This document shows, one piece after another, positions 23,707 to 49,882 of a DNA stretch of 64,000 nucleotides. Under the pieces are notes generated by a model, which made no database searches, was not told the DNA's origin, and saw only the letters and a list, made by a program, of their open reading frames with translations. Each line of letters opens with the position of its first letter. The first letter of the stretch is position 1. Position numbers and translations under genes: made by a program. The stretch lies in assembly GCF_006345805.1 (NCBI RefSeq), contig NC_043013.1, positions 46,376,001 through 46,440,000 of the forward strand. The letters run 5' to 3'. Source of the stretch: Octopus sinensis (taxonomy: Eukaryota).

Positions 23707-23859
23707 TATTATTAAAGGGTTGTGAGTGAAGCAGGGAGGTGTGTATGTATGCGTGTTGAACATAAAAAGTGGATATACTTCGTGAATGTGTGCGGGGAGC
23801 GGGGGGGGGAGAGTCGCTAGTGTGCATGAATGAACATGCGGCTGAGAAGTGTGTGTGTG

Positions 23860-24790
23860 TGTATGAGAGACAGAGAAGATGTGTGTGTGCATGCGTGCGT
23901 GTGTGTGTGTGTATATGAGAGACAGAGAGGATGTGTGTGTGCATGCGTGCGTGTGTGTGTGTATGTGTATATGAAAGACAGAGAGGATGTGTGTGTGCAT
24001 GCGTGCGTGTGTGTGTGTGTATATGAGAGACAGAGAGGATGTGTGTGTGCATGCGTGCGTGTGTGTGTGTGTATGTGTATATGAAAGACAGAGAGGATGT
24101 GTGTGTGCATGCGTGCGTGTGTGTGTGTATGTGTATATGAAAGACAGAGAGGATGTGTGTGTGCATGCGTGCGTGTGTGTATGTGTATATGAAAGACAGA
24201 GGATGTGTGTGTGCATGCGTGCGTGTGTGTATGTGTATATGAAAGACAGAGGATGTGTGTGTGCATGCGTGCGTGTGTGTATGTGTATATGAAAGACAGA
24301 GGATGTGTGTGTGCATGCGTGCGTGTGTGTATGTGTATATGAAAGACAGAGGATGTGTGTGTGCATGCGTGCGTGTGTGTATGTGTATATGAGAGACAGA
24401 GAGGATGTGTGTGTGCATGCGTGCGTGTGTGTGTGTATGTGTATATGAAAGACAGAGAGGATGTGTGTGTGCATGCGTGCGTGTGTGTGTGTATGTGTAT
24501 ATGAGAGACAGAGAGGATGTGTGTGTGCATGCGTGCGTGCGTGTATGTGTATATGAGAGACAGAGAGGATGTGTGTGTGCATGCGTGCGTGTGTGTGTGT
24601 ATGTGTATATGAAAGACAGAGAGGATGTGTGTGTGCATGCGTGCGTGTGTGTATGTGTATATGAAAGACAGAGGATGTGTGTGTGCATGCGTGCGTGTGT
24701 TGTATGTGTATATGAAGACAGAGGATGTGTGTGTGCATGCGTGTGTGTGTGTGTATATGAGAGACAGAGGGGATGTGCGTGTGCGTGCGT
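23860..24790. repeat. Minisatellite, about 50-56 bp unit, roughly 17-18 copies
   Basis: Unit ga(a/g)agacaga(ga)ggatgtgtgtgtgcatgcgtgc(gt)n atgtgtatat; explains the 381-535 aa His/Thr-rich pseudo-ORFs. Confidence 0.97.
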
Positions 24791-26183
24791 GCGTGTATGT
24801 GTATGTAAACGCTTGGAAGGAGCCAAATACGTTACGAAAGTGAAAGTATAGATGCTGTGGGCACAAGAGAAAGGAATGAAGATGTGAGTGAGAGAGAGAG
24901 AGAAAGAAAGAGAGATGGGGGGGGAAGGAGAGAGACTGGAAGTGTAACGTATCCAACCGCACCCCGGCTTTTTTTCTATCATTCTTTCTTTCTTTTTTTT
25001 TCTTTTCAGAGAGTATGTTGCTGCAGTTAGTTCGTAATCGTATGATATGTGTGTATGTAGGAGTATTTTTAGTGAAAGAATTGGGGGGGGGGAAATTATA
25101 TCAACGTAGATAGATACAAGACTTAACACTAACAGTGCTGTTTATAGACATGCATGACAGACACAAGAAGGGAGGGGAAAAAAATACGGGTCGTCATAAG
25201 AAATAAATAAGACAGGTTATACGACAGGTATTACAACATTTTTTTTTTTTTTTGTAATGTTTATGTGTTGTTATAAATGCTTGTATTTTAATCTGTGCAA
25301 CTGGCATTAAAACCTGGGCAAATACGGTTACACCAAGACAGCAGACACTAGCTAAACATAAGCATCCACAATTATATATATATATATATATATACACATA
25401 CATACAAACACACATACACGTACATATAAACACAAGCATATTTTCATACATATTCTTAACTATACACATACAAACACGATACACAACAAATATCTCGCAT
25501 ATATATATATAATATATATATATATAATATATATATAGGTATATATATATATATATATAGGTATATATATATAGGTATATATATATAGGTATATATATGG
25601 TTGCATATAATCGACACATGGACACACATGCAGGTTGATATTACATATACATACATAAATGCGTGCACGTATCATTATCAAATATTTATACAGGTACAAA
25701 TATGCACATACACATATAATCAAAGACACATACGCACACAAACAAATATATAAACATACATACATACAGCAACATATATATATGTATATATACATATATA
25801 CGTAAACATACATACTAAGACATATATACACCTGGTGCCAAGTGGATAAAATCTCCGTCGTCCAGGAATCAGACGCAAAAATAAGTAAGTATATACTATG
25901 AGGATGTTTATAATAGTTAGATGAGAAGGTACCTTCTATGTACCTGGAACTTCTCTACAGTAACAAACACGAGTTAGGAAGATTTTGGAATATCGGCCAA
26001 CTAAAAACTATACATCAAAATGCCTGGGAAAACTCAAGACAGGACATGCAAACCAACAATCTAATAGTAACATCTCTTCCACGTGCACCAAAAAAAAAAC
26101 CCATTTATGAGAGAGAGAGAGTGAGAGAGAGAGAGGGGGGGTTGCGTGTTTCGTTGCGTGTATGCGGTGGCGGTGGTGGGTCA

Positions 26184-32032: not shown

Positions 32033-32036
<4 letters not shown>

Positions 32037-32185
32037 GAGAGTTTACGAAAAAAACAAGACGAAGACAGGTGGTGTACAAAACAAACAGATGTATTAGTAT
32101 AACGCTCAGGAATAGAAAAAGTCTTTTACGTTTCAAGCCTACGCTCTTCTACAGAAAGGGACACAGAAAAAACAAGGAGAGACGG
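32033..32185 (-). mobile_element. (TA)n-embedded Penelope/retrozyme-like repeat, family B, with hammerhead-like motif
   Basis: Nearly identical to 41235-41357; minus strand 32158-32123 reads CUUU CUGUAGA A GAGC GUAG GCUU GAAAC GUA AAAG. Confidence 0.6.
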
Positions 32186-32739
32186 TAAATGAAAGATGGA
32201 AGATGGGGTATATGAGAATTTATTAATCACAATTGTTTTGACACATCTAGCATTGATCCCTAGCTGAGGAGCATATATATATAGGTAAAGATAAATATGG
32301 TAGGTCTATGGGGTTACCCTGGGTTTCATATCCCTAAAGCACATCTTTACAGCATTTCTTCAGACTCTAGGCCTATGACCTCTCTAGGAAATGGAGGAAG
32401 AAAATACTTTGTGACTCTATGTCAACAATGGAACATTGTCTCCTATTGGCCGCTACTCATAATTGAACCTACTATTGTGTGGATCCCAGGACACCAACAG
32501 GCATTTCCTGAAGTACAAGCAAGGTCCAAAGACTTCTGTCCTGGAGTTAAGGATATTCTTTGGGTTGAGGGAGTGCTTTAATATCCTTTAATATATAAAT
32601 GCATGCATACATACATAGAACCATACAGACACACATACAAGTAGAGGTATGCACATACATATGCATACACTCACATATGTTGATATGATGAAAAATTCTG
32701 GTTTGATTGTTGTTAGTCCATAATTATGAAAGAACTTAA

Positions 32740-32958
32740 CCCTTTAGTGTTCAGATTATTCAATCAAACATAATGCTTATTGATTCCCATTGATTTGAAT
32801 TAATCATGCATTATCTCATATCTTCAAGATCTTGATGGTGTAATTACTTAATGTAGAATAACATTGTAGGGTAGGTGTGAGAGCCTGGATCTGGTCAGTT
32901 TGAACATAAAACAGATTAAATATTTTGGCCAGATATGGCCAGTTTAAATACTAAAGGG
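32740..32958 (+). mobile_element. piggyBac-like MITE (second family)
   Basis: TTAA|ccctttagtgtt ... aatactaaaggg|TTAA; opposite-orientation copy at 44354-44570. Confidence 0.85.
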
Positions 32959-33663
32959 TTAATGCTGAATACAGAATATTTCATAAACGGGTCTATTTGT
33001 GTTCTTGCAGCATGGTCCCTGTTGTTTCAGTAAAGTAACAGTTTATTAAGCTTCATCAGAGAAGTTGCCATTTCAGTAGCTGTGAAACTGCATCAATTCA
33101 TATTGTTTTTGTTATAGAAGAAGGAGCTGGGGAGGAAATGATACAAAAGTGTGTTGATGGAATGAAACAGCAAAGAAGAAAGTGAGTGGTAAATAAGGAA
33201 GAGAGGGAGGGAAGTTGAGGAGTGAGTGGGGAAGGAAATAAGAATGAATAAGAAGGAGCTAAAGATAGGGTAGCTGGAGCAGTTGGGTGGAGAGCAAAAG
33301 AAGCGACAGGGTGGAGAAGGGCAGGAGAAGTGGGGTGGCTATGGAGGCAAAGTCTGGATGGAATACAAAGGTCAACATTTTGATAAATAAAGCTAAGAGT
33401 AAGGAGTGACTAGTAACGAAGAAGTACTACAGTGAAATTTGACCCAAATATAACTTAGTTATATGCAGAATGTAAACTAGTCAGAATTACTCAAGAGATG
33501 ATGATGGTGGTGGTGGTAATTATATTCTTAGGAACAATATACATTTTTACATACCTTATACAGTGATCAGAGACATATGCTAACATATTTATATATAAGG
33601 GAATTCAAAATTATGGAATGTCTTTATAATGTACATATATATATAATTATCTATATACATGTC

Positions 33664-33713
<50 letters not shown>

Positions 33714-33714
33714 G

Positions 33715-33915
33715 TTAATCCAAACAAGAAAACAAAAAGACAACAACGCAAGGACGTGGAACAAATAAAGTATTATTGGACGCTCAGGAAAGAAGGGAAG
33801 AAGGAAGGTTTGACGTTTCGAGCGGAGCTCTTCGTCGGAAACATAGGAGAAGAATAGATCCCGAGAAGGGAAGACAGGGGAAAAAAATCGCTAGTGATAC
33901 AGACGAGGTCACATA
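33715..33915 (-). mobile_element. (TA)n-embedded Penelope/retrozyme-like repeat, family A
   Basis: Collinear with 46720-46920 (gttaatccaaac...gtattattggacgctcaggaa...gtttcgagcggagctcttc...gaggtcacat); flanked by (TA)n. Confidence 0.65.
33808..33842 (-). ncRNA. Minimal type I hammerhead ribozyme-like motif (U4C variant)
   Basis: GUUU CCGACGA A GAGC UCC GCUC GAAAC GUC AAAC: stem I GUUU/AAAC, stem II GAGC/GCUC, loopless palindromic ACGU stem III, GUC triplet. Confidence 0.6.
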
Positions 33916-34016
33916 TATATATGTATAATTATTATTTGAGGGAATAAAATCCAGACTTACAAGGAAAAAGAATTCAATTTAGAAATGCTAAATCAAATTC
34001 CATACAATATAATATA

Positions 34017-34154
34017 TATAAAATATTAGAAAAAAAACCACCTTTTATCAATTCAAAATGAATAATTACACCATCTATTATATGTAATTTTCTAGATGGT
34101 GTAATTTGATTATTCATTTTGAATTGATAAAAGGTGGGTTTTTTTCTAATATTT

Positions 34155-34158
<4 letters not shown>
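34017..34158. repeat. Near-perfect fold-back, about 60-65 bp arms
   Basis: tataaaatattagaaaaaaaaccaccttttatcaattcaaaatgaataattacaccatcta pairs with tagatggtgtaatttgattattcattttgaattgataaaaggtgggttttttctaatattttata (one short indel). Confidence 0.9.
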
Positions 34159-34193
<35 letters not shown>

Positions 34194-34688
34194 GGCCGTA
34201 GGTCTTAATCACTTTTACCTTTACATCCATTTTCCCAAGCCAGGATGGGTTAGACAAATATATTATTGAGACAATACTTAACAGCTGGATATCCTCCCCA
34301 TTGCTAATCCTTAAAAGTTTGTCAAAAAAGAGTATATTTTATTCTGCAAGTCTCTAGACAGTACAAAACAGTCTGACGGTCTGTTGACAAGGCACAAGGC
34401 AAATGACTGCAATGTCACAGCTTGTAACTGAGTAGGTTTAGGAAAAGCATATATGTAATATGTATGTATTTTGGGAGGATCATTATGCTAATGAAAACAT
34501 ATATACACCCGCCCATATATATATATATATATCATGATATTGGTATCATGTGATCCACCGGACTATCGGATAAGGTTATACATTGCTAGTCACAATGTGC
34601 TTTGCAGTGCTTTTGAACGATGCTGTCATACTGGCTAGATGACCAGGTCACCAACGTTCCTCTGATCAGAAGGATATGCTGTCACAAG

Positions 34689-34732
<44 letters not shown>

Positions 34733-34770
34733 GGTATGTGTGTATGTATGTAAATATAAATGTTTGTGGC

Positions 34771-34922
34771 TGGCTGTGTGGTACAAAGTTTACTGCCCAA
34801 CCAAATGGCTCCAGGTTCAGTCCTGCTGCGTAGCACCTTGGGCAAATGTCTTCTACTGTACCTGTGGGCCAACAAAAAGCCTTGTGAGTGGATCAGGTAG
34901 ATGGAAACTGAAAGAAGCCCGT

Positions 34923-34957
<35 letters not shown>

Positions 34958-35154
34958 GTCTGTTTGTCCCCCCACCATCACTTAACAACCAATGTTGGTG
35001 TGTTCATGTCCCCGTACCTTAGCGGTTCAGCAATAGAGACCGATAAAATAAGTACTAGGCTTACAAAGAATAAGTCCTGGGATTGATTTGTTCGACTAAA
35101 GGCAGTGCTCCAGCATGACCACAGTCAAATGACTGAAACAAATAAAAGAATAAA
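34771..35154 (+). mobile_element. SINE family 1 copy
   Basis: tggctgtgtggtac...ggttcagtcc...ccttgggcaaatgtcttctac...gactgaaacaaataaaagaataaaa. Confidence 0.87.
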
Positions 35155-35159
35155 ATATA

Positions 35160-35303
35160 TAGGAAGGGCATCCAGCTGTAAGAAACTTTGCCAGATCACA
35201 TTGGAGCCTGGTGCAGCCTTCTGGCCCGCCAGCCCTCAGTCAAACTGTCCAACCCATGCCAGCATGGAAAGCGGACGTTAAACGATGATGATGATAATGA
35301 TGA
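35160..35303 (+). mobile_element. RTE-type 3' tail/SINE tail ending in (GAT)n
   Basis: taggaagggcatccagctgta...ccaacccatgccagcatggaaagcggacgttaaacgatgatgat; related pieces at about 330-490, 2940-3045, 39520-39700 and 48762-48810 (minus). Confidence 0.7.
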
Positions 35304-35756
35304 TATATATATATATTTATATATGTCAGTCCAACCAATGTCTTATGAATAAACAGTGAGTGCTTTCACAATCACATGATTTCGATGCTGATCTTCTGAC
35401 GAAGCACTGAACATCTGGTGCCTTTCCTTCGTCCGACCGTTTTGGCTACCTCTAACATCACACAGGAATGTGGTATACCCATCCCAAAACTGAAATACAA
35501 ACGGTAAGTATAAACATGCATATTTGTGTGCATTAATACATTTATTCAGATTGGTATTCTCTGTATGCTGCAACATGGGCAGTGTCTCAGGCTGTTGAGA
35601 ATGTTATATTTGGTAGAGCAATTCCTTGGTCTTTGAGTCAACAAAACATGACAGACCTCTGATTTTTTTTTTTTTTTTCCTGTCCCTGGCCATAAAGAAG
35701 TACATGTGTTGGGTAAGCTTTCTCTCTTCTAATCTTTATCATAAATTCCCTTGTAA

Positions 35757-36033
35757 CAGTAGTTCCGAACATTTTCAGGCTGCCGCCCCCTTGGCACCCA
35801 GGCCACATTCCTAGCGCCCCATTACCCTACCCACCACAAATATGGACCACTTTCTGCAGCAAATTCAAAACAACTGTATTTCACAAATAAAACATAAAAC
35901 TCATTAACCTATTAGTGTTTTTATTTTACATCACCCCATTTTAGCCACCCTGTTTTCATCCCACTTTTCTTCAACCCCCCCCCCCCACACCACACACACA
36001 AAGGGGCAGTACTGCCCACTTTGGGAACTATTG
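35757..36033. mobile_element. hAT/Charlie-like MITE (decayed)
   Basis: Termini cagtagttccgaac / tttgggaactattg; flanks ccttgtaa vs ctttagaa only partly match. Confidence 0.6.
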
Positions 36034-36226
36034 CTTTAGAATACTATCATGTGGGATGAGTTTCATCCTTGGCAACACTGCACTGGATAAGCAGTATTTC
36101 CTCAAAAGTAAGTGGCTTCATTTCAGCAACTGTATGCAGGTACCTCGGGTCAAAGCCATGCGTGTGTTTCGTCTGTTGCAATGCATTATACTTGATGCAA
36201 TATTGTCAAGGAAAAAGCAACACAGC

Positions 36227-36490
36227 CAGGGCTGTGGAGTTGGGGTCGGAAACAATTAAAAGGAAGCTGGAATCAGAGTCGGTAAAACTATACCGACTCC
36301 GACTCACAATATCTTTGTTCTTTAATATAAACCAGTTATAAAATACAGGCTTAGTCAAAGTACAGGTGTGTTCATAGGCTTTATGAGATATGTAGACCAC
36401 AATCATTTAATTACATAAAGAGTCGGAGTCAGAGGTGCCAATAGTACAGGAGGTGGAGTCAAAGATTTTTGTTTTGACTCCACAGTCCTG
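36227..36490. mobile_element. hAT-like MITE with GGAGTC subterminal repeats
   Basis: TIR cagggctgtggagt / actccacagtcctg; 8-bp TSD aacacagc vs aacacaac (7/8). Confidence 0.85.
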
Positions 36491-36559
36491 AACACAACTT
36501 GGCATGATATTCATTAAAGAATGTTATGATATTCGTGTGTGCTTTGGTGGACTTAATCA

Positions 36560-37000
36560 GCTGTGAGAGAAAATGCACAATAGCCAGAATAAGGGCAGGC
36601 AGGAAAAGCTAGCAACGAGAGAATACTCTCTTTGAGTGAATGGAAGAGTATGAAGTGCACTGTTGCATAGCTGTGGAATAGGGACACATAATGCACAGCA
36701 TGTGTGAAGTTTATGAAGGAATGAAGCAAGCTTGCTGGGCTGCATGTGTGTAAAGTTAGCAAGTGTCGAGGACACGGGACTGATGAGCCAAGAGAGAAGA
36801 CTTAAGTAGCTGAAGAGTCATAATGTGCAACGACAAAGGATGAGTTGGTGTGGATGTGTGATGCACATGGAGGATGATTGAAGTGCCAGGATGACCAAGT
36901 GGAAGGAAAATATGATGGAGGAAGAGGAAGACATGGACAGAAGTGATAAAAGCTGTTTTCATGATGTTTAAACTTCACCAAAAAGACAGTAAAAGAATAC
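36560..37000 (+). mobile_element. Decayed RTE-clade LINE 3' ORF fragment
   Basis: Broken translation gives ARIRAG, ALLHSCG, ERNEASLLGCMC and RMSWCGCVMHMEDD, resembling the RTE C-terminal RLRWxGHVxRM region. Confidence 0.7.
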
Positions 37001-37049
37001 AACAAACATAATATAAAATGAAATTTTATTTATACATAAGGTAAAGGAT

Positions 37050-37373
37050 AAGATCCCTCCCCCTTTGATTGCACCTAGAAAGTTCTCCTCTGAGGCAAAA
37101 GTCCGGGTAAGGTTGTTTATGGAAGGCCAGCAGTCACCCCTGCACACCAGCAGTATCTTTCCATGCCACCGATTTTATCCAAAGGAAAAGCAAAGGGGCC
37201 GATACAACTTGGCACCAGTGACATCGCAACTCATTTCTGCAGCTGAGTGAACTGGAGCCACGTGAAATAAAGTGTCTTGCTCAAGAACACAACATACAAC
37301 CCAGTCTAGTAATTGAACTCACGACCTCTTGATTGTGAGCCCGACACTCTAACTGCTGAGCCATGTACCTTCA
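37050..37373 (-). mobile_element. tRNA-derived SINE family 4
   Basis: Minus strand gtgaaggtacatggctcagcagttagag (A box)...gagttcaatt (B box)...gttcttgagcaagacactttatttcac; decayed plus-strand copy at about 29195-29390. Confidence 0.75.
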
Positions 37374-37803
37374 CACATACACACACATATATATATATAT
37401 ACATATACACACAAACACATACTTTACATACATTTTTTTTCATTGGTTGTTGATACCTTGGAAAGATTACCTTAGCCGTAGCTGCCCCAAGCACAATTTC
37501 AAAGTAAACAATTCTCACTAGAAAACTATGCACAAAACAGAAGCTGATATGTAACCTGATACCACCAGACCATTTATACCTCAGCATGTGGAACAGCTTT
37601 TTCCCTTTCACCTCCAGTACCTGATGTCACAAAAAAAAATTTCAAACTTTACAGGTCAACAACCACCAGACACCACCACCAAACTGTCTCTGCTAACACA
37701 TGGAAACATGCATAGAATTATCTGGTTGCTATTTTAACAAACTATTCACATGGTTACAACAGACCATTGAAGGCCCCCCTCGACACTGTTGATATGTATA
37801 TTT

Positions 37804-38038
37804 AAGGCGGTGAGCTGGCAGAAATGTTAGCACACCGGGCGAAATGTGTATCTGTATTTCGTCTACCGTTATGTTCTGAGTTCAAATTCCGCTGCGGTCG
37901 ACTTTGCCTCTCATCCTTTTGGAGTCGATTAAATAAGTACCAGTTATGCACTGGGGTCGATATAATCGACTTAATCCGTTTGTCTGTCCTTGTTTGTCCT
38001 CTCTGTGTTTAGCCCCTTGTGGTTAGTAAAGAAATAGG
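37804..38038 (+). mobile_element. SINE family 2, full length
   Basis: aaggcggtgagctggcagaa...gagttcaaattcc...gtcgactttgcct...agtaaagaaata; reverse complement of 49883-50119. Confidence 0.9.
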
Positions 38039-38528
38039 TATGTATATTTATATGCCCATCTGCCATCGAAATTTATCTTCCCCAGTACAAAATTTTAAGT
38101 CATATGAAACGAGACAACTACATGTGTTGGATGCTGCTTTCTTTCATTTATTCACCTCCCAGTATAAATAGATGTTTGCAAAACGTGTGAGTGTGTGTGT
38201 GTGTGTTCAAATTAATGGTGAGAACAACAACAAAGAAGACACAGTGAAAACAAGGAGAGAGGAGTTTAGCACTGAATGAGAGATCAGGAATACAGATAAG
38301 TCTCTGAAATTTCAAGCTCAAGCCTCTTAAATTTAGTTAGAAGGAAAGAATTGGAGAAAGAAAAGAAAATGTGAATGGAAAGAGAGATATGAATTGTTCT
38401 ACATTGTTATATTTAAAATTGCAGAGTTTTAAGAACCAAGAGTGACGCAGAAGGAAAGAGGTTCCTTTATACATGGACAACAGAGGAAGTAACTGCAGAA
38501 ATTAAGCATGTTTGAATGCGCATGTATA

Positions 38529-39427
38529 TATTGGGTCATCTTATAAATAGTGAGGTTTTTTAATACTTCTTTTATTTTACAAAATTAAGATAAACAAAGT
38601 TCTTTTTTTTATCTAAAATATAGTCTCCTTCATTTTCTACTATACTCTTCTATCTATCTGCAAGGTCCCTCTTCTAAAATTCACTTGCCTGTGATGAAAA
38701 ACACTCCACCAGTACTGTTCTGACTCTGTCTACAGAATTTGTATTTTTTCTGCCCAAATAATTTTGAAGACTACGGAATAAATGATAATCAGATGGGGCA
38801 ATGTCCAGCAAATATGATGGGTGGGGCATCGTTTCCCATTCAAACTACTCCAGCCTTTGGAATATCATCCTTACTGTATGTGGCTGAGCATTATCCTGAT
38901 AGAAAAACACCTTTTGTCTTCAAACCAAAGGTGGTTGTTTTTCTCCTAGCGCAGGTGTCGATAAATGGTTGAATGACCAAATTTGAGCTTCTCTGCTAGT
39001 TCCTCAACAGTTACAATGGGATTTTGTTCCACCAGGATGTCCTCATCGAGCTCTACAGATCATCTAGGACAGGCTCGTCTTTTAGGCAGCAGTTTCCCAC
39101 TCGGAATTTCTGGAACCACTGTTGACATTGGCTTAAGCTTATTGTTTAATCCGCATATACTGCATTAATATTCCTCACACTTTCCGGTGCGTCGTTGCTT
39201 TTATTGAACTCATAATCAAAATATGCTGAATATGCTCCTTTGTCACTTCCATTATAGCTTTGAAAAAATAACTGTTAAAATGGAACTGCACTCTTCAAAA
39301 CTTGCACTAAGAATAAGGACAAGATAAAATTACTACCTGCTTTTGATGTAGGTAGTTTATCCCATCTCTCTCTGACTTTTAGTTCATGCAATTGAAAAAG
39401 CTGCATTATTTATGGGATGACTCAATA
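38529..39427 (-). mobile_element. Internally deleted, decayed mariner (Tc1/mariner, D,D34D-type) transposon
   Basis: TIRs tattgggtcatcttataaatagtg / cattatttatgggatgactcaata with TA ends; minus strand encodes QQWFQKFR...EELAEKLKFGHSTIYRHLR (HTH region) joined to QDNAQPHT...HPPSYLLDIAPSDYHLFRSLQN, with stops and frameshifts. Confidence 0.92.
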
Positions 39428-39736
39428 CATGTGTAAGTGGGGTTTTTTTATCATGTTAGTAATTACTAATGTTTAGTTGTGGGTATAGTTATTACAATGT
39501 GTGTACAAATACATATTATGCCAGCGTCATGTAAAAAGCACCCAGTACACTCTGTAAAATAGCTGGCACTAGGAGGGGCATCCAACCATTGAAACCATGC
39601 CAAAACTGACAACTGGAGCCTAAACAGCTGTCTGGTTGGTCAGCTGCTATCAAACCACCAACCCATGCATGCATGGAAAATGGACATTAAATGATGATTC
39701 ACAAAATAAGCAATAAAATGCATCTATCTATCTATA

Positions 39737-39802
<66 letters not shown>

Positions 39803-41234
39803 GTATATGCATGTTTGTGCACATGAGCATGTATGTGTTAGTTGTGTTCAGAAAGCTAGGGTGTAGCTATATGTGTATAACATTCATATTGTATGCAATT
39901 ATCTGTGTTATATTTTGAGTATATATGTGTACTGTGATTGTTTAGTTTGTGGATGGGAGTGATATTGAATGTGTGAGTCTCATTGTGTGAGAGTAGAAAG
40001 AGTGGTACTGTGTGTGTATATAGTTGGTCAAATGTCTATGCATATCAAGGTCTATGTTTGACTGGATGTATATGTATGTGAGTGTGCAGTGATAGGGTTT
40101 GTGCTAAAGGAAATATAGCTGGGCACATTAGGGATGAAAGTTTGAAGACTGAAAGTGAGTTCTTGTTCATGTTGGTGAAAAACTCTGGGGAATTAGTGTA
40201 GGGCTACACATGTACAGTCAAGATAGATATCATGTAGATATTTGGTAATGTGGTTAGACAAGTGTTATTCAGTCTGTCTTCAGCATGTTGGAAGTTGCAG
40301 AGGGAGGATTTTATGCAGCAAATGAGATTGGTACAGGTGCAGATGAATGAGTTGGTTATACAGAATGGTGGTTAGATCCAATGAGAAGCATGATGTAGGA
40401 AAAGAAGGGTAGGTGTTACAATAGGGAGGGTAGGGCAAAAAAGGGATCCTATTTGGGTGTGGGAGGTAGAAAATGAGCTAGGGATGAGTAGGTTATATAT
40501 GTATATAAAGGAGAAGAGAAATGTCTTTGGGATGATGTCAGAAGTGGTATTGGTATATGTTTGGAAGATACAGAATATGCATAGAATAACATTGGAGGGA
40601 ATATTGTATATGTGTGGTAGGAGAGAGAGAAAGACAGTTGATAGTTTTTATATATATGTGTGTATGTGTTAGTAAAATCTTAGATATTTTGATATAGTGT
40701 GAATAAAAAGTGCATATAATATATAACCAGTATATAGAATTTCGTGTATGCGGTTACATTACAAAAGAAAAATCTGTGAAGAAAACGTATCTTCTTTCAT
40801 CAAACTTTCTTGTTACTGGTCTCCATAGATACAAAAGCCACAGAGTAAACATCAAAAAAAAAAATAAAAACCCAAGACAGGAGAGTTACTTCTGAAATTA
40901 TATAAGTAATTATAAAAATAACTCTCCAGTCTTGTTTTTACTATATTAAAATTTGTCATGGGAAAGAATGACAAAGATTGAAGTTTAGACTTACTTTGCT
41001 TTTGCACAGTCTGACAAAGGTAAGCAAGCCAAAACTTCAAAGGTACTGTCAACTCTTTCTTTGTAGACATTTTATGGACATGTACTGTACAAAAAGTAAT
41101 CCTTAAGTTTGATGGTAAATTGTTATATATAAGTTGACATAAAAACAATACAGACACATCACTCCATGATTTATAGATATATGCACATATATTTATATAC
41201 ATACTTATATACACACACACACACATATATATAT

Positions 41235-41357
41235 AGAGAGAGTTTACGAAAAGACGAAGACAGGTGGTGTACAAAACAAACAGATGTATTAGTATAATGC
41301 TCAGGAATAGAAAAAGTCTTTTACATTTCGAGCCTATGCTCTTCTACAGAAGGAGAC
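41235..41357 (-). mobile_element. Penelope/retrozyme-like repeat family B, second copy
   Basis: gagagtttacgaaaagacgaagacaggtggtgtacaaaacaaacagatgtattagt...; minus strand 41353-41318 reads CCUU CUGUAGA A GAGC AUAG GCUC GAAAU GUA AAAG. Confidence 0.6.
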
Positions 41358-43167
41358 ACACACACACACACACATAATTATAAACATATTCTCACACACA
41401 CATGAATGAGCTGACTGTGCCTTAAGAAAAACCATGGAGCAGGTTTATGAGAAAGCCAGCCAAATACCAGGAGCCAGTTGATCAGTGCATAAGCTGAGGC
41501 TTGTGGGCATGCAGCAGCCAATTAAAGTAGGCTGCAAAGCTCTGACGGCACTGGAATTACTAGTGCAGCAAGGAGTGGCCATACATTCCATTGCAGAAGC
41601 TGCAAGTATTTCTACTATTAGAGCTGGGTAGAGAGAGTAGGTCCGTACGTTACTGCTGGGATCCAAGCCGGTACTTGATCAGCCTTGACTGTGTTAACTA
41701 AACAAGGGGATCTGATATTGAAAGACCCGGGATGGAATCCCTTAAGGCATCAGGAACATCAGCGGTGATCCATGTCACAGCATCTATGAAAAATATAAGG
41801 GTTGTCCTGATAGTAATACAAAATGGAGAATTCCTCACCATCATGTGTGAGTCGACTGATTCAGGTCTTAATATAAAATTTGTACCTGTATTCACATTAC
41901 TTTCGGGATATAATCAAGAGACAGGTGCAGCCATTGCTGATGATGTAGCCAACATCTTCATGGTAGGGTGGAATAAAGTATTCAAACAGTACCAAACAGA
42001 GAAATCCATACCTATAGAGATGTACACTTATATAGAAAAGATCCAGCATATAGCAATGTCCATCGATGAATGCCTTAAAGCTACCATTAATTACCGATCC
42101 AAACACCCCAACAAAAGGTTACCAGTTCTAGATAAGGATCTTTAGCTAGAAATTATATAGTGGCAAGAAACAGCTTGTCCACCCATATTATATGAAACTT
42201 ATGGCAAATAAACAGCTGGCACTCCAGAGCTCTGTTTTGTCAACAAATGCAAAAATAAACATCTTGACAGTGGACCAAGGAAAGATTATGGGAAACATAT
42301 TTCATGTATATGTACAGAATTTCAGCTATCACATACATCTCCCTGGATACAACCAATTAGATCAGATCAGGGTAGACAAATTGCTAGAGAAATGTTTGAA
42401 ACTATCATCAGCATTCTAATGGAGTGTGCCCCATGTACTGGAGAAAATTCTGGAACAGATTCAAAAGGGAAAAGCTGGGCAAGGAAAATTCCTGGTATGA
42501 CAAAAACAAATTCCAAGATGTGATGTTCATTGGTGCTAGACCCAGAGGTGAACGAACCTGTAAATTTAGGAAAAGCACTATGTGGCAGAAAACTTAAAAT
42601 CAAACACAATGGCCCAATGCAAAATGCTGGAAGCAAGAATTCTTTTCTGATACCCAAAAGACCCAACCTAATGCTCGATAACAGACGCTATACAAGCATA
42701 AGATGCAAACTTAGCCATGAAGAATAAGTTGAAATGCCTACCACAACAAGAACAATACTTGAATAACATAATTCCAAAAGCAACTATAAACAACCAAAAC
42801 ACACACACACAGATGTTCGGAAGTAATTAAACGAAAACATCGTTAGCTCTCGTTAGATGTAACAAGAGAAAAATCAGTTGAAAACTAAAAAGACCAAGCA
42901 TTTAAAGGCAAACTGTATACTAGACTTGTGTTATAAAAGATACCTTGAGGACAGAGGAAAACATTGACTGCTTTGAGAAAAGAAAGAAAATGAAATATAG
43001 TCAAACAACAACTGATGAATACGTTTATAGGCTTTATTAATTTTGACTCTCTCCAAATATATCAATATATATATATATATAATAACAAATTAATAAATAA
43101 AACATATGCATATATACATACATATATGTACGTACCTACATCTACATGTATATATACATGCATATAT

Positions 43168-43485
43168 GGGTACAGGACACCAAACGTCGAACACAATGAG
43201 AAACGAAAACATAAACACAAAACCAAGGAAATGGACATTTTTCTTAAACAACGAAAAAATAGAGTACAGGACATACAACACAAGGAAAATTCCCCTTCTT
43301 CAGTCGCATCTGTTTCATCTACTCCGCGTATCGAAGGTAAAGGCGAGACACGACTTTGTTGAAACATTCCTTCCCACAAAGGGCAAATTAAATAAAATTT
43401 GAGATTTTTTCGCGGAGGGGTAAAAATGGTTACAAAACCAGGACAATAAAGACAGTACAAAATATAAACAGTAAAAGACAGGACA
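43168..43485. mobile_element. Unclassified CpG-retaining repeat inserted in a TA-rich tract within the LINE
   Basis: Sharp compositional contrast with its flanks; internal gtacaggaca duplication; (TA)-rich flanks. Confidence 0.45.
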
Positions 43486-44353
43486 TATATATAAATGATG
43501 TTATAATGAAAACTTTAAGTCTTGTGAAATACAGCTACCCAGATTTTTGGGACCAAAACTTTAATTTATTTCACCATTTTCTATTTGTTGAAGCCTTACC
43601 ACATAGCTATCTATCTATATATATAATCGTCACTGTTTTTAACATCCACTTTTCAATAAATATGCTTAGGTCAGGTGGAATTCATTTTCTACAGCTGAAT
43701 GCCCTTCCTGTCGACAACACTCACTTGTTTCTGAGCAAAGTAATATTTCCATATGACTGGACATGTTTGCATAGATAACTGGAAACAGATTACTGCTTAT
43801 ATGATAATGACACTCTACCATGTAATATCAAGAAAAGGGGGCACAAACAGAAAAGCATGTGTGTGTGCACACAAACACACGTGTGTGCATGTACAAGAGG
43901 CTGTTTTCTGTTTCTACCAACCAAATTCTCTAACACTGAATGACCTGAATATCAAATTCTCTTGGGAATGTCATTGCATGAACAAAAACAAACAGATCTA
44001 CCTGAACTCTCTAACATGTTGTTCATGGAACAAATTATGTTTCAGCCCACCAGGAGCAAATACATGCACAGTCTCTGCTTCATAAAGAACATGGAACTCA
44101 CCTATAATGCGACAATCTTCTTGATCCACAACCTAATAGAACTTACAATGTATGGTCCAAGGGAAACCACAAATATACACTCAGTTATCCAGCCAAAACA
44201 TTCACAAAACTGATTGGAAATCAGTCCAGAAGAGGTCCTTGTTTAAGGACTGGCAAGAAATTTCTTGATGCAATGCAATGAAACAATGCTTGAATTATTC
44301 GTGTCAATGACACAAGTTCTTATGGGAGAGAACAAAGTTGACATATCACTTAA

Positions 44354-44570
44354 CCCTTTAGCATTGAAACTGACCATATCCAGCCAGGTATTTCACTTGT
44401 TTTGTGTTCAAACCTGCCAGATTTGGCCTCTCACACATATTCTACAATGCCATTCTAGAAATAAACAATGACAATCATCGAAAGTTTGAAACTGTGAGAT
44501 AATGCACAGTTAATTCAAAACAATGTAAATAAATAAGTTCTACATGTGGCAAGGAAATCTGAATACTTAG
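44354..44570 (-). mobile_element. piggyBac-like MITE, inverted copy of 32740-32958
   Basis: TTAA|ccctttagca...gttcaaacctgccagatttggcctctcacac...gagataatgca...aatctgaatact; far end eroded. Confidence 0.75.
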
Positions 44571-45218
44571 TATTCAGACAATAAACAAACAACAAGCAAT
44601 CTGACAATATAAAGAAGAAAATCAGGCACTGTCATGAAAGGGTGATATCAGAGAAACTCGGCTATAGAAAATATATACAAACAACACATTTGTTAAAGAA
44701 ATGGCCAGTGTGCATCACAAAATATGGCCATTATTCCAAAAAGACAACTCGTTAAGAGCAAACACCAAAAGGATAAGTGAAATACTGAATGAGCAGTTAA
44801 AAAGTTGTTTACACTTTCCCACAGGACATGTGCAAGTAAATAAACCAGAAGAGATCTTTGATACAACAACTCTTCATTGGAAGATGCCAACCATTGTTAC
44901 ATGACATAAATGAGGTAGATATAATATCAACCAGAGATAAAATGAGCTTAAACTGGGCCCTGGTGGATTCCCAGCAATCCTCCTAAAAGTGGTATATAAA
45001 CAAATTTTAGCTAAACCACACTAGAAACTTCCCCAAAGCTTCTTGGTAATTAAGAAATCTCTGAAAAAGATGAAGGAAGGTACAATATGTCCTACTCTGA
45101 CTTCATATCACCAAAGTAATAGAGTCAAACACTCAGCAAAGCCCAGAAAGAAGCTGCCTTACTCAAACCCTGCAGCACTATGACTGGATATTGAAAGAGC
45201 TGTTTAATCATTCATTAT

Positions 45219-45608
45219 ATCTTTTATTTGTTCCAGTCATTAGACTGTGGCCATGTCGGAGCACTACCTTGAGGAATTTTAGTTGAATGTATCAACTCCT
45301 AGATTTATTTCTTTTAAAAACCTAGTACTTATTCTATTGGTTTCTTTTGCAGAACTCCTAAGTTATGGGGATGTAAGCACACCGGCACCAGTTGTCAAGT
45401 ATTGGTGGGGGGACAAACACAAACATAAAGACACATAAACACATATATATATGACAGGCTTCTTTCAGTTTCCATTTATCAAATCCACCGACAAGGCTTT
45501 GGCCAGCCCAAGGCTATAGTAGAAGACATTTGCCCAAGGTGCCATGCAGTGGGACTGAACCCCGAACCATGTCGTTGGTAAGCAAGCTACTTACCACACA
45601 GCCACCCT
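45219..45608 (-). mobile_element. SINE family 1 copy inserted in the LINE RT region
   Basis: Collinear with 18304-18678. Confidence 0.87.
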
Positions 45609-46139
45609 GTGGTTTTTGCAAAGAACAATAATGGTGTGTAGGATGCTGGGACTTCCAATTAGTTCAGAAATTAAGAGAGTGGTTATGTAATGTTTTAAGA
45701 AGCACACAAGTCAGAGGGTGGCAGCAAATGGTGCCTTTCCAACGGAAATGCTGATTTTGAGTCGAGTTCCTCTCGAACCCTTTTTGGGACCAATGCTACT
45801 AATGGGTGCTCTGTCAGACACACGGTCAGGTATATGTACAAGTAATCCCAGTAGCAATATTGATGAGGCAATTCAGAACACTGATGATGATGCTGTACAT
45901 TAACAGCATGATCTTAATGCAGTCTACAAGAGGGCGGAAGAAAATAATATGCAATTTCATAACAAAGAATTCTGAGGTCTGAAGAACTAGAATTCATAGA
46001 GAGAGAGAAAGAGAGAGATTGCAATTCCAGATTTGCAGTCAGCACAGACCCATACACATATATTTCTGCATGTACACACACACACTCATGCACGTTATAT
46101 CTATATCTATGTAACATCGTCCATTTTTCCGTCCTTGTT

Positions 46140-46346
46140 TAGTATACATTCAAAGCTTTTTTCCAAGGAATCTAATGCTCTCAGCTTAGTTTTTCCTTGG
46201 GGCTGGCCAGATTGGAGCAATCTCGAGTATAACCAGCCGAAATTGCAAGGATGATCCGGTTCTTGACTGAAGATTGAAGGCTTCAAATGACCAGTCTGTG
46301 TTTTTTGTATCGTCTTCTGAATGTTTTGCGTTCTTGTCCCATTTTG

Positions 46347-46350
<4 letters not shown>
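46140..46350. mobile_element. Unclassified repeat abutting (TA)n/(GATA)n
   Basis: CpG-retaining block with internal pairings ccttg/caagg and ggctgg/ccagcc, ending at a (TA)n tract. Confidence 0.4.
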
Positions 46351-46382
<32 letters not shown>

Positions 46383-46719
46383 TAGATAGATAGATAGATA
46401 GATAGATCCAACGTATGCAGAATGAACAGAAAAAGTACTCCATCCAATGAGAGATAAGTTTTAATTTAATACACGTACTGAAAGAGCTACTATAAGTTTC
46501 ATGCTTTTATGATACTTGTAATAGGCGTATTTATAAAATACACCATGTATCTTCCAAATAATCTTTCAGACTCTGTATATACATTAGATATATTGTAAAA
46601 ACAAGGATGTTGGAGAGTGAGAAAAATAAGAAAAAACTAGAAGAAAAAATCTGCATACATGTGTATGTATGTATATATATATACATTTATACAGATGTGT
46701 GTATGTATGTATATATATA

Positions 46720-46920
46720 TAGTTAATGCAAACATGAAAACACAACAACGTGAGGATGTGGAACAAGTATGGTGTTATTGGATGCTCAGGAAAGAAGGAA
46801 ATAAGGAGGGTTTAATGTTTCGAGCGGAGCTCTTCATCAGAAACATAGGTAAAGGAAAGATCCAAAGAAGGGAAGACGGAGGAAAAAAAATCGCCAACGG
46901 TACACACGAGGTCACATTTT
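46720..46920 (-). mobile_element. Penelope/retrozyme-like repeat family A, second copy
   Basis: Homologous to 33715-33915; (TA)n flanks. Confidence 0.65.
46810..46844 (-). ncRNA. Minimal type I hammerhead ribozyme-like motif (canonical CUGAUGA core)
   Basis: GUUU CUGAUGA A GAGC UCC GCUC GAAAC AUU AAAC; stem III carries a G-to-A change relative to the 33808 copy. Confidence 0.6.
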
Positions 46921-47091
46921 GAATATATATATATATATATATATGAATATATACATTATTTTCATGTGTGTGTGTAAATATATATATTTATTTGTTTATG
47001 TGTTTAGATATGTACACACACACACACACACACTTATAGATGTATATTTTTCAATAACCACGAAGGTGTTTAAGTTCACGATCATAATATC

Positions 47092-47296
47092 ATGGACCAG
47101 ACGGTGCATCACATTATTCCTCAAGGTACTTCATTTCAAGTGGCTTCAATCAACGCACCCGACAACAAACAGAAGCCTGGTGCTGGTGAAGCCTTGTCGC
47201 TCTCCACCTATACAATATCTTCAATGTTACTACAGCTGAAAGGAGACAGAGCAGAGAGGACCGAGACTGTTTCCACATCTCCCTGCAACTACACAG
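47092..47296 (+). CDS. Candidate coding exon of an unidentified gene
   Basis: Unique, CpG-retaining island between microsatellites; ATG-initiated open frame MDQTVHHIIPQGTSFQVASINAP...STSPCNYT ending at CAG|GTATGT (phase 1); no recognisable homology. Confidence 0.3.
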
Positions 47297-49882
47297 GTAT
47301 GTACGGCAATTAATGATAGCATGGTGCATGTGAGCAATTAACACTTGCTGGCAAGTGATGGCTATAGGCTCAAGCATAAAATACACACAAACACACACAT
47401 ATATATATATATATATATACATTTACACAGATGTGTGTATGTATGTATGTATATATAATATAATATATATATATATATATATATACATTTACACAGATGT
47501 ATATATGTGTGTATGTATGTATATATGATATAATATATATATATATACAAACACACACATTTATACCTGCACTTGTGTATGTATGTATATATATATATTA
47601 GATACATATATATATACATGTGTGTATAGGTATAAATCCTTATAAATATGTATATATAAATCATTATACATGTGTGTTCATATATATATATATATATACC
47701 AGCAGTATATTGGATAACTGATATTCCATAGTGGGTTACCTTCATAATCCCTATCTTACTTTGTACTATATATATATATATATATACCGGAGTAAGCACA
47801 TAAATGTATATTATATACATATATATAATATTTTGATATACATCTTTATATATATACATGTACACATGTACCATATACCTACACACAGATAAATGTATAT
47901 CCTTGGGCTGACTAAAGCCTTAAGAGCAGAAAAAGGAGATGAGATCTAAATAAAATAACCATCATATACATGTGAGTGTATATGTGTATATGTGTATATA
48001 TGTGTGTGTACATACACGTGCATGTGTTTGTGTCTGTGTGTTGGTTCATGTGTGTGTGACACTTCGAAAACTGCTAAGCCACAACAGATGACGTCACCCT
48101 CCCTATAATTAAAACTTCCTTTTCAAACCATGTGGTTTGAGTTCAGTCCTTTCGGCAAGTATTTTACCTTCGACTGGAGACTGAGGCCGAGTTAAGATTT
48201 CATGTGTGGATTTCATGGACATATATAAATAAAAGGTTATCATCCGTGTGTGTGTGCATGTGTGTGTGTGTGTCCATATCTCTATGTGTTGACATTGTTT
48301 GGTAACTGTAAACAAATGTCTTTGCTATAGATTAAGATGAAATTTCTATGTATAACAATGCATATGCATGTATCTGTGTATAAATATATACATCAATATG
48401 CATATAAATATATATAGGCTTGATAAAAAAAAAAACTACATGTGTGTATAAATATATATATATACATATATATGTATATAGCTCTTCAATCACTTCTGGT
48501 GATTAAAAATTAAAACATATATATATGCACAAACATATAAATTTCACTGTGTATATATATATATCATCATCATCATCATCATTTAACATACATATATATA
48601 TATATATACACACACACATATATATATACACACATATATATATATATATACACACATATATATATATATATACACATACATAAATACATATGTATGAACA
48701 TATGTGTATACACACAAACATAAACACATATCTGCTAAATGTCTCAACATTCCACATATATATCATCATCATCGTTTAACGTCTGCTTTCCATGCTAGCA
48801 TGGGTTGGACTGTGTGTGTATACATACATATATATATATATATATATGTCTGGAGTTGAGACAGAGAGCATGAAAGAGAGAGAATGAGACCTAATACAAA
48901 TATGTTCTAATATAAACACACATGCACAATTTATATACATGCATATATTCATATTCATACACACACACATATATGTATGTATAACGTGTGTCTACAGAGA
49001 TTGTTGAACCTCTGCCAGGTTCTTTGTCTTACATTGGCTTTATCCCTTTCCAAAAACAAGAACAAAAATTTATAAGTAAACTAAACAAAAAGGAAAAAAA
49101 TCAATCAGTCGATCAATCAATGCCACGTATCCGAGGATTAAATTATCAAAACTAAAATTTCTCTACATTGATGAACCCAATAAACATTGTAAATATTTCC
49201 AAATAAATGTAAAAGATTCTGTTTTTACTCTACTTAAATACTTTGTGATTGCTTACCATTTCTTGAGATTTGCGAGCAGTGAGAATTCTTATGTATATTT
49301 GTGTGTGTTTAAGTGAGTGTACATGCTTGTGTGTATGTATAAGCACAATGAGTGTGTGTTTGGAGAGCATGTGGCCATTGAAAATATACCTGAATGAACT
49401 CCATCCGACCCACACATGCATAGTAAGAAGGACTTTAAAATGATGATGATGCTATACATACGTACACACATATATATTACAGACACACAAGCATATCTAT
49501 ATATACATACATATACACATATATGTAATTTATATAAACAAATATCATCATCATCGTGCTAGCCTGCAATGAGCATACACATACATACATAAATGCAAAT
49601 GTTTATATATATTTTATATTACATATACAGACATACGTCGTGTATTAGTGTGTTTGTGTGTGCTTTCATGTAAAATAACGGTGATTTCACAAGAATGAAT
49701 GATACAGGAATAGATAGATACTGTGAGGAAGCTGTATAAGACAGACTGGGAAGAGGAGAGAAAAGAAGAGAAAGAAATTCTAATAAAAAAAGTGAGGTCA
49801 CAAGAGTAAAAGAAGGAGATTGGTAAAAAGCGACGCCAGTGACCAGTTCGACTATGGTAACCAGTGTAAAAATTTCAATATA

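What the first reader, a model, noticed from the sequence alone, without database searches (positions are those of the whole stretch)
32123..46844. Four minimal hammerhead-like ribozyme motifs in two sister repeat families, with covarying stem I and non-canonical cores
Seen, all on the minus strand: 33842-33808 GUUU-CCGACGA-A-GAGC-UCC-GCUC-GAAAC-GUC-AAAC; 46844-46810 GUUU-CUGAUGA-A-GAGC-UCC-GCUC-GAAAC-AUU-AAAC; 32158-32123 CUUU-CUGUAGA-A-GAGC-GUAG-GCUU-GAAAC-GUA-AAAG; 41353-41318 CCUU-CUGUAGA-A-GAGC-AUAG-GCUC-GAAAU-GUA-AAAG. Stem I covaries between families (GUUU/AAAC vs CUUU/AAAG), the stem II loop changes while the stem is kept, the triplet stays NUH, and both families share a downstream UUCCUGAGC(G/A)U motif. 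All four lie in short ORF-less repeats next to (TA)n. Established: Penelope-like elements and retrozymes carry minimal type I hammerheads whose short palindromic stem III works as a dimer, and an extra A between A9 and G10.1 is a known tolerated variant. Inference: these are non-autonomous, microsatellite-associated, ribozyme-bearing retroelements. The CUGUAGA core (A6U), present in both family B copies, would be an unusual variant or a shared dead state. No single copy here is fully canonical.
Basis: partly seen in the sequence, partly recalled or inferred. Interest (0 to 1): 0.75.

Follow-up and report, generated by a model that had tools for sequence, protein, structure and literature searches.

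The report
Penelope hammerheads with lineage-fixed core changes
The four motifs are hammerhead-ribozyme sequences in the cut-short tail ends of two very abundant, protein-coding Penelope-like jumping-gene families whose spreading lineages each carry a different changed letter in the normally invariant catalytic core, likely because a slowed ribozyme suits elements that are likely copied from uncut RNA; cutting itself is untested.

Summary
All four motifs are present as described. They are not non-autonomous retrozymes. They are 120-200 bp 3' stubs of two sister Penelope-like retrotransposons (reverse transcriptase, zinc-finger linker, GIY-YIG; Neptune type), about 95,000 copies genome-wide. 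The odd cores are inherited, not decay. Family B has U at core position 6 in 96.6% of 13,954 matches, and in 20 of 20 young long-ORF copies. Along its lineage the flanks diverged about 30%, while the motif changed only at position 6 and at the two free positions, N7 and H17. Family A went from a canonical core to U4C (4,563 versus 2,241 matches). Three of the four window copies also carry CpG decay. Six of seven full-length copies run past an intact upstream motif. Cut-site footprints were inconclusive. Best reading: a weakened but still selected ribozyme. The kind is known (Cervera 2014); I found no family-wide A6U core in print, but the most relevant paper (Lünse 2017) was not held. This scan noted the A6U core before, in this genome and in another.

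The parts
33714..33914 (-). Family A stub, 201 bp, between (TA)n runs; youngest A subfamily (C4 core, GUC triplet)
   Evidence: 40 of 40 scored genome matches at 95-100% identity
33808..33842 (-). Minimal hammerhead, core CCGACGA (U4C), undamaged relative to its subfamily; predicted cut after 33812
46722..46917 (-). Family A stub, about 196 bp, middle-aged subfamily
46810..46844 (-). Minimal hammerhead, core CUGAUGA, stem III palindrome broken by CpG decay (ACGU to ACAU); self-duplex no longer favourable
32035..32182 (-). Family B stub, 148 bp, A7 grade, ending at (TA)n
32123..32158 (-). Minimal hammerhead, core CUGUAGA (A6U, family-wide), one CpG decay to G-U in stem II; predicted cut after 32127
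41236..41358 (-). Family B stub, about 123 bp, beginning just 5' of the motif
41318..41353 (-). Minimal hammerhead, core CUGUAGA, with a stem I mismatch and two CpG decays (loop II, stem III); most worn of the four

Best explanation
The four motifs are minimal hammerhead sequences in 5'-truncated 3' ends of two autonomous Penelope-like retrotransposon families whose spreading lineages carry A6U (family B) or U4C (family A) in the core, and these changes likely slow the ribozyme without abolishing it, so that most RNA would stay whole long enough to be copied. Shown: the element anatomy, the fixed cores and the constraint on the rest of the motif. Inferred: the element protein nicks (TA)n; reverse transcription starts at a fixed TA-rich site about 105 nt downstream of the predicted cut (all copies end there) and usually stops early, leaving stubs that contain the intact motif. 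Inferred from published PLE work: any cleavage needs two motifs paired through the ACGU palindrome, or help from the element protein, and trims or circularises a minority of tandem transcripts. The window copies themselves are solitary, partly decayed and likely inert.
For: Identity: family B full-length partial tandems with RT and GIY-YIG and a motif at both ends 4.5 kb apart; family A ORF contiguous with the tail in L187-L189, endonuclease 58.5% identical to B. Fixed cores: U6 in 13,474 of 13,954; with 11 core places left free, 100 of the first 100 listed of 15,039 have U6 and 82 an otherwise intact core; 20 of 20 longest-ORF copies carry CUGUUGA; in contigs of four public runs under three organism codes position 6 shows C at 1.7% or less and A is not among the rows shown. 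Constraint: N7 takes all four letters (U53, A20, C14, G13 of the first 100 listed) and H17 only A or U; six age grades differ up to 35% in the tail but only at 6, 7 and 17 in the motif. Weakening: U4C lowers activity in vitro yet supports viroid infection, and A6C is slow but active (PMC3088659; PMC7151607); CUGA-turn mutants show low activity (PMC9901934). Uncut template: 6 of 7 full-length copies extend 563-1,360 nt beyond one unit through an intact motif; in an anole PLE, hammerhead mutants do not impair insertion in vitro and cleavage needs the protein (PMC11167929).
Against: No cleavage was measured, and I found no rate for A6U itself. In the one deep scan I read, all CUGA-turn single mutants had low activity, which also fits 'dead'. 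Genomic cut footprints are inconclusive: family A 16 junctions at or after the cut versus 8 at the three A of GAAA (P=0.15), window subfamily of B 10 versus 8 (P=0.81); only the U17-rich B set is skewed (22 versus 6, P=0.004) and there a TA microhomology coincides with the cut. The constraint test is partly circular because most copies were collected by motif patterns; only searches are freer of this. A fold kept for protein binding would leave N7 free as well. Folding puts the hammerhead-type monomer fold at under 10% in all six motifs tested.
Confidence: 0.55

Rival explanations
1. Catalytically dead but still needed: the motif is kept as a fold or sequence that the element protein or the pLTR promoter uses, so positions that serve only catalysis drift.
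For: Two independent core changes in two successful sister families; position 6 shows A, C and U across B grades; no clear cut footprints; insertion does not need cleavage in vitro (PMC11167929); Naiad PLEs were reported to spread without a canonical motif (bioRxiv 2021.04.23.441226).
Against: The catalytic G8 and G12, the GAAA, the NUH triplet and the dimer palindrome stay fixed; no G17 among the first 100 listed; both changes fall at positions where natural slow variants are on record.
Confidence: 0.25
2. Compensated and efficient: in the dimer, with the element protein or with other metal ions, the variant cores cut well; unit RNA is re-ligated to a circle, which restores the motif and is copied round more than once.
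For: More-than-unit copies with a seamless tail-to-5'UTR joint in 6 of 7 full-length copies; one full-length copy starts two bases after the predicted cut (L107); 8 tail-only copies start one base after it; A6C is rescued by Mn2+ (PMC7151607); circle model proposed in PMC4209133.
Against: Tandem master loci explain the same copies without circles; cut-site starts are well under 1% of copies and not above neighbouring A positions in family A; no RNA ends at the cut were found for the anole PLE.
Confidence: 0.15
3. One reading: short non-autonomous, microsatellite-associated retrozyme-like elements, with cores that are simply decayed.
For: Most copies are 120-250 bp and ORF-less, with clustered 5' ends, so some short masters cannot be excluded.
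Against: The same ends continue into RT and GIY-YIG ORFs; no short tandem arrays at the four sites; the variant cores are in near-identical young copies.
Confidence: 0.05

Closest known systems
Minimal type I hammerheads (min-HHR) in pLTRs of metazoan Penelope-like elements (Cervera and de la Pena 2014, PMC4209133; read: parts 1-2 of 4 of the main text, part 2 of 3 of supplement 2, term search of the supplement)
   Same: 4-5 bp stem I, extra base between 9 and 10.1, G10.1-C11.1, loop-less palindromic stem III, location in pLTRs, mostly solitary truncated copies, tandem pairs a few kb apart around an RT-EN ORF.
   Different: All rows of the alignment part I saw have U4 and A6 (the only core variants are at the 3-8 pair); here U6 and C4 are fixed in thousands of copies. 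Stem II is short (4 bp).
Neptune/Nematis-type EN+ Penelope-like elements (definitions from Craig et al. 2021, bioRxiv 2021.04.23.441226; read: passages)
   Same: RT followed by a CX2-5CxxC zinc linker and C-terminal GIY-YIG, 5' truncation, partial tandems, microsatellite insertion bias.
   Different: Neptune versus Nematis was not settled by a tree; family A has an unusually long (about 2.4 kb) CA-rich 3' UTR.
Poseidon element of Anolis (Frangieh et al. 2024, PMC11167929; read: parts 1-2 of 4)
   Same: Fixed internal 3' end downstream of the hammerhead, AT-rich targets, insertion from RNA that holds the intact motif.
   Different: Other clade; its motif overlaps the ORF start, whereas here the start lies about 700 nt downstream; its core is canonical.
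Natural core variants U4C (viroid) and A6C (phage Bcep176) (PMC3088659, section 8 and passages; PMC7151607, part 1 of 4)
   Same: Same two core positions; low but detectable activity.
   Different: Single examples in full-size hammerheads; A6U does not occur in that main text (0 hits).
Non-LTR retrozymes (PMC7229834, passages; bioRxiv 10.64898/2026.07.22.740005, part 1 of 5)
   Same: Type I hammerheads in short animal repeats, related to PLE pLTRs.
   Different: Retrozymes are 150-450 bp tandem non-coding arrays with canonical motifs; these are dispersed stubs of coding elements.

Membership tests
EN+ Penelope-like element | One ORF with RT followed by C-terminal GIY-YIG endonuclease | tested here: met
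   B: RVT_1 E=9.5e-8 and GIY-YIG E=0.006 (below Pfam cut-off) in one 835-aa frame; frames up to 1,009 aa. A: RT and GIY-YIG in L187-L189. None of the 20 copies had an unbroken frame from the presumed start Met.
EN+ Penelope-like element | Partial tandems forming pLTRs, frequent 5' truncation | tested here: met
   5 of 20 long-ORF copies plus L109 are partial tandems; unit 4,508 nt. Shown for B; for A only a non-coding 2.4-kb tandem (L185) was seen.
Neptune/Nematis clades | CX2-5CxxC zinc-finger linker between RT and EN | tested here: met
   C-x4-C-xx-C in both families.
Neptune/Nematis clades | Placement in an RT tree with named references | not tested
   The homolog search gave unnamed or uncharacterised proteins only; 'Neptune' rests on the linker, the microsatellite bias and recall.
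Minimal type I hammerhead (min-HHR) | Core C3U4G5A6N7G8A9 | tested here: not met
   B: U6 in 96.6%. A: C4 in 67% of exact matches; met in older A subfamilies.
Minimal type I hammerhead (min-HHR) | G12A13A14A15.1, NUH triplet, G10.1-C11.1, extra base 9.1, stems I and II | tested here: met
Minimal type I hammerhead (min-HHR) | Palindromic loop-less stem III for dimer formation | tested here: met
   ACGU at family level, self-duplex -3.1 to -3.7 kcal/mol; broken in 2 of the 4 window copies.
Minimal type I hammerhead (min-HHR) | Self-cleavage after H17 | not testable with these tools
   Indirect genomic footprint inconclusive.
Rfam hammerhead families | Covariance-model match | tested here: not met
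   No hammerhead family among the 150 shown of 477 matches in the window, nor in 4 loci or around 46.8 kb; expected for motifs without loops 1 and 3.
Non-LTR retrozyme | Short non-coding tandem repeats with a hammerhead in each unit | tested here: not met
   Solitary stubs that continue into coding elements.

The most novel reading that the evidence does not exclude
A6U and U4C are working, deliberately slow hammerhead cores: two sister retrotransposon lineages independently tuned down their ribozyme (B through A to C to U at position 6) because they need mostly uncut RNA yet still need rare, probably protein-assisted cleavage or circularisation. A6U would be a new natural catalytic core, present in over 13,000 copies of a recently active element.
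Probability: 0.35. Interest if true: 0.65.

Novelty: new variant of a known kind. Interest (0 to 1): 0.42.

Why it matters
What PLE hammerheads do in vivo is open. Here one genome offers a dated natural series (A6, C6, U6; U4, C4) in elements that kept amplifying, with young near-identical copies, so the question whether cleavage is needed, tuned or dispensable can be tested directly. It also shows that searches demanding CUGANGA miss the larger part of these families. The four window copies themselves are ordinary debris.

Tried and rejected
Rfam: no hammerhead match; the list was swamped by microsatellite hits. The repeat finder was swamped likewise. RNA evidence: no RNA holder listed; contigs of four guessed-RNA runs cannot show ends. 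Cut-site footprint: tried in three sequence sets, inconclusive; counts are by hand from the first 100 listed rows, collapsed to 41, 33 and 46 loci, and only 20 loci of the first set were fetched (2 proved chance matches). Tree of 80 B tails (112 columns): many forks open; the CUGAGGA copies (11 of the first 100 non-U6) do not form one clade, so a minor canonical subfamily or reversion in the G7 grade is unresolved. Order A6 to C6 to U6 is suggested by grade ages, not shown by a rooted test. Host gene context: ten window ORFs had no Pfam match. Literature: searches for hammerhead+A6U, U4C, core strings, octopus+hammerhead gave no report of a family-wide A6U core by listing or abstract. Lünse et al. 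2017 is not held and may describe such variants; file 1 of the Cervera supplements and bioRxiv supplements were not seen. PMC13282606 (octopus repeats; passages) has no 'ribozyme' in its text. One script had a slicing error that flooded its output; the hit rows were still readable, one of the 14 hits lay at a stretch edge.
Full report
Observation. The four strings are at the stated places on the minus strand. A type I descriptor allowing one core mismatch finds three of them and nothing else in 64 kb; the strict rule finds nothing in 12 shuffles. The fourth has a stem I mismatch and is recovered by a second scan. The window lies in G000, 2.72 Gb. From its size and microsatellite load I take it to be octopus-like; that label is recalled and comes from no call of mine.

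Copy number. DNA searches gave 2,185 and 2,897 candidates, 40 scored each, at 95-100% identity over the stub. In 40 stretches of 10 kb placed at round coordinates, tail-only profiles found 8 family A and 6 family B copies: about 95,000 copies (52,000-160,000), 2.2 expected per 64 kb. Four in one window is unremarkable.

What the repeats are. Copies share a fixed 3' end at a TA run about 105 nt after the predicted cut and have variable 5' ends. Longer B copies continue through a pyrimidine-rich UTR into a GIY-YIG domain and an RT. L109 is a partial tandem with the motif at both ends. The endonuclease finds at least 150 copies at 97-100% identity, with open frames up to 1,009 aa. Of the 20 with the longest frames, all carry CUGUUGA at the 3' end, 5 are partial tandems and 17 hold the YIDD motif in the frame found; none was unbroken from the presumed start. 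The unit is 4,508 nt. Family A reaches its own RT and GIY-YIG about 2.4 kb upstream in L187-L189, 58.5% identical to B in the endonuclease. Both have the CX2-5CxxC linker that marks Neptune and Nematis elements. The window repeats are therefore 5'-truncated ends of two sister autonomous Penelope-like elements.

The cores. Family A: 2,241 exact matches with U4 and 4,563 with C4, reversed controls 0. One subfamily with a G-U closing pair has U4 in 8 of 8 (collected by a U4 pattern), a middle group is mixed, and the least diverged group, to which the 33.8-kb copy belongs, has C4 and GUC in 39 of 39. Some U4 copies of the middle group may be CpG decay of C4; this includes the 46.8-kb copy. Family B: 13,954 matches with positions 6 and 7 free, 480 of them not U6. 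Among the first 100 listed, N7 is U53, A20, C14, G13 and H17 is A or U. With 11 core places free there are 15,039 matches; of the first 100, all have U6, 82 are otherwise intact and 18 carry scattered changes. Contigs of four public runs under three organism codes agree: variation in the motif sits at N7, H17 and CpG sites, C6 at 1.7% or less (three rows not shown; depth is no copy number).

History of B. Tails of 80 copies fall into grades of rising similarity: 15.6% and 15.4% from their majority sequence in the two oldest, 9.4% (G7), 7.3% (A7, the window copies), 7.8% (C7/U7) and 1.4% (U7, U17). I enriched the sample for non-U6 copies on purpose. The oldest supported group holds only C6, A6 and one G6, including one A6 copy from the unselected stretches, so the canonical A6 is likely ancestral. 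Tail majorities differ by up to 35%, about 0.59 changes per site along the ladder, against no change at the 30 other motif positions where 17.7 would be expected. This figure is inflated by how copies were collected and by T-runs, but searches point the same way. N7 changed repeatedly on a U6 background, so the motif stayed under constraint after the change.

Structure. Only the closing pair of stem I changes on both sides, once, between families. The ACGU palindrome gives a weak self-duplex; CpG decay breaks it at 46.8 and 41.3 kb. No Rfam hammerhead model matches.

Is the RNA cut? Any copy that contains the motif came from RNA that was whole at that site, either never cut or cut and rejoined. 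Six of 7 full-length B copies run 563-1,360 nt beyond one unit through an intact upstream motif; the seventh starts two bases after the predicted cut. Tail-only copies exist: 8 verified independent loci start one base after the cut, one of them possibly a local duplicate. But junctions at the three A after the cut do not exceed those at the three A of GAAA in that set (10 versus 8) or clearly in family A (16 versus 8); the skew in the U17-rich set (22 versus 6) coincides with a TA microhomology. The test is inconclusive, and such copies are under 1% of the family.

Mechanism. Most likely (0.55) the variants slow a ribozyme that is still needed now and then. U4C and A6C are on record as slow natural variants, CUGA-turn mutants have low activity, and an anole PLE inserts from unprocessed RNA while its hammerhead cuts only with protein. 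Rivals: a dead fold kept for another job (0.25), and a compensated ribozyme feeding a circular template (0.15).

Comparison and novelty. Minimal hammerheads in PLE pLTRs are described; the alignment rows I saw there all have U4 and A6. Four searches found no family-wide A6U core, but Lünse et al. 2017 on PLE hammerhead variants could not be read. Earlier notes of this scan report the same A6U family in this genome and an A6U core in another genome; these are unchecked notes, and my counts were made independently. Verdict: new variant of a known kind, interest 0.42.

Noticed in passing
window 40294-40593 (-): Decayed remnant of another Penelope-like ORF, 36% identical to the family B protein just after the RT core.
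   Followed up: no
L161 near 4840 (+), L118, L020: Other hammerhead families with a U3-A8 core (UUGAAAA) and 6-nt palindromic stem III; two near-identical copies in different loci.
   Followed up: no
L107 4380-4570: Fold-back repeat of another family directly upstream of the full-length B copy; it also seems to hold a CCGACGA-like or related core.
   Followed up: no
L185 4647-9554: Tandem of a 2.4-kb non-coding family A unit at 98% identity, a possible internally deleted non-autonomous derivative.
   Followed up: no
L203: Family B copy in which the whole motif between the two stem I strands is missing.
   Followed up: no
G000 C2:131812462 and C5:60782211: Tail-only B copies whose first ten or so bases after the predicted cut are duplicated, possibly template jumping at an RNA end.
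   Followed up: no
window 41702-42724 (+) and 47074-47310 (+): Coding-looking frames of 67-147 aa without a Pfam match; host exons or old transposon.
   Followed up: partly
window 23849-24807: Minisatellite of about 18 units of 50-56 bp.
   Followed up: no
L108 7413-9901 (+), L092, L178: Further, more distant Penelope-like families with zinc linkers; their hammerheads were not examined.
   Followed up: no
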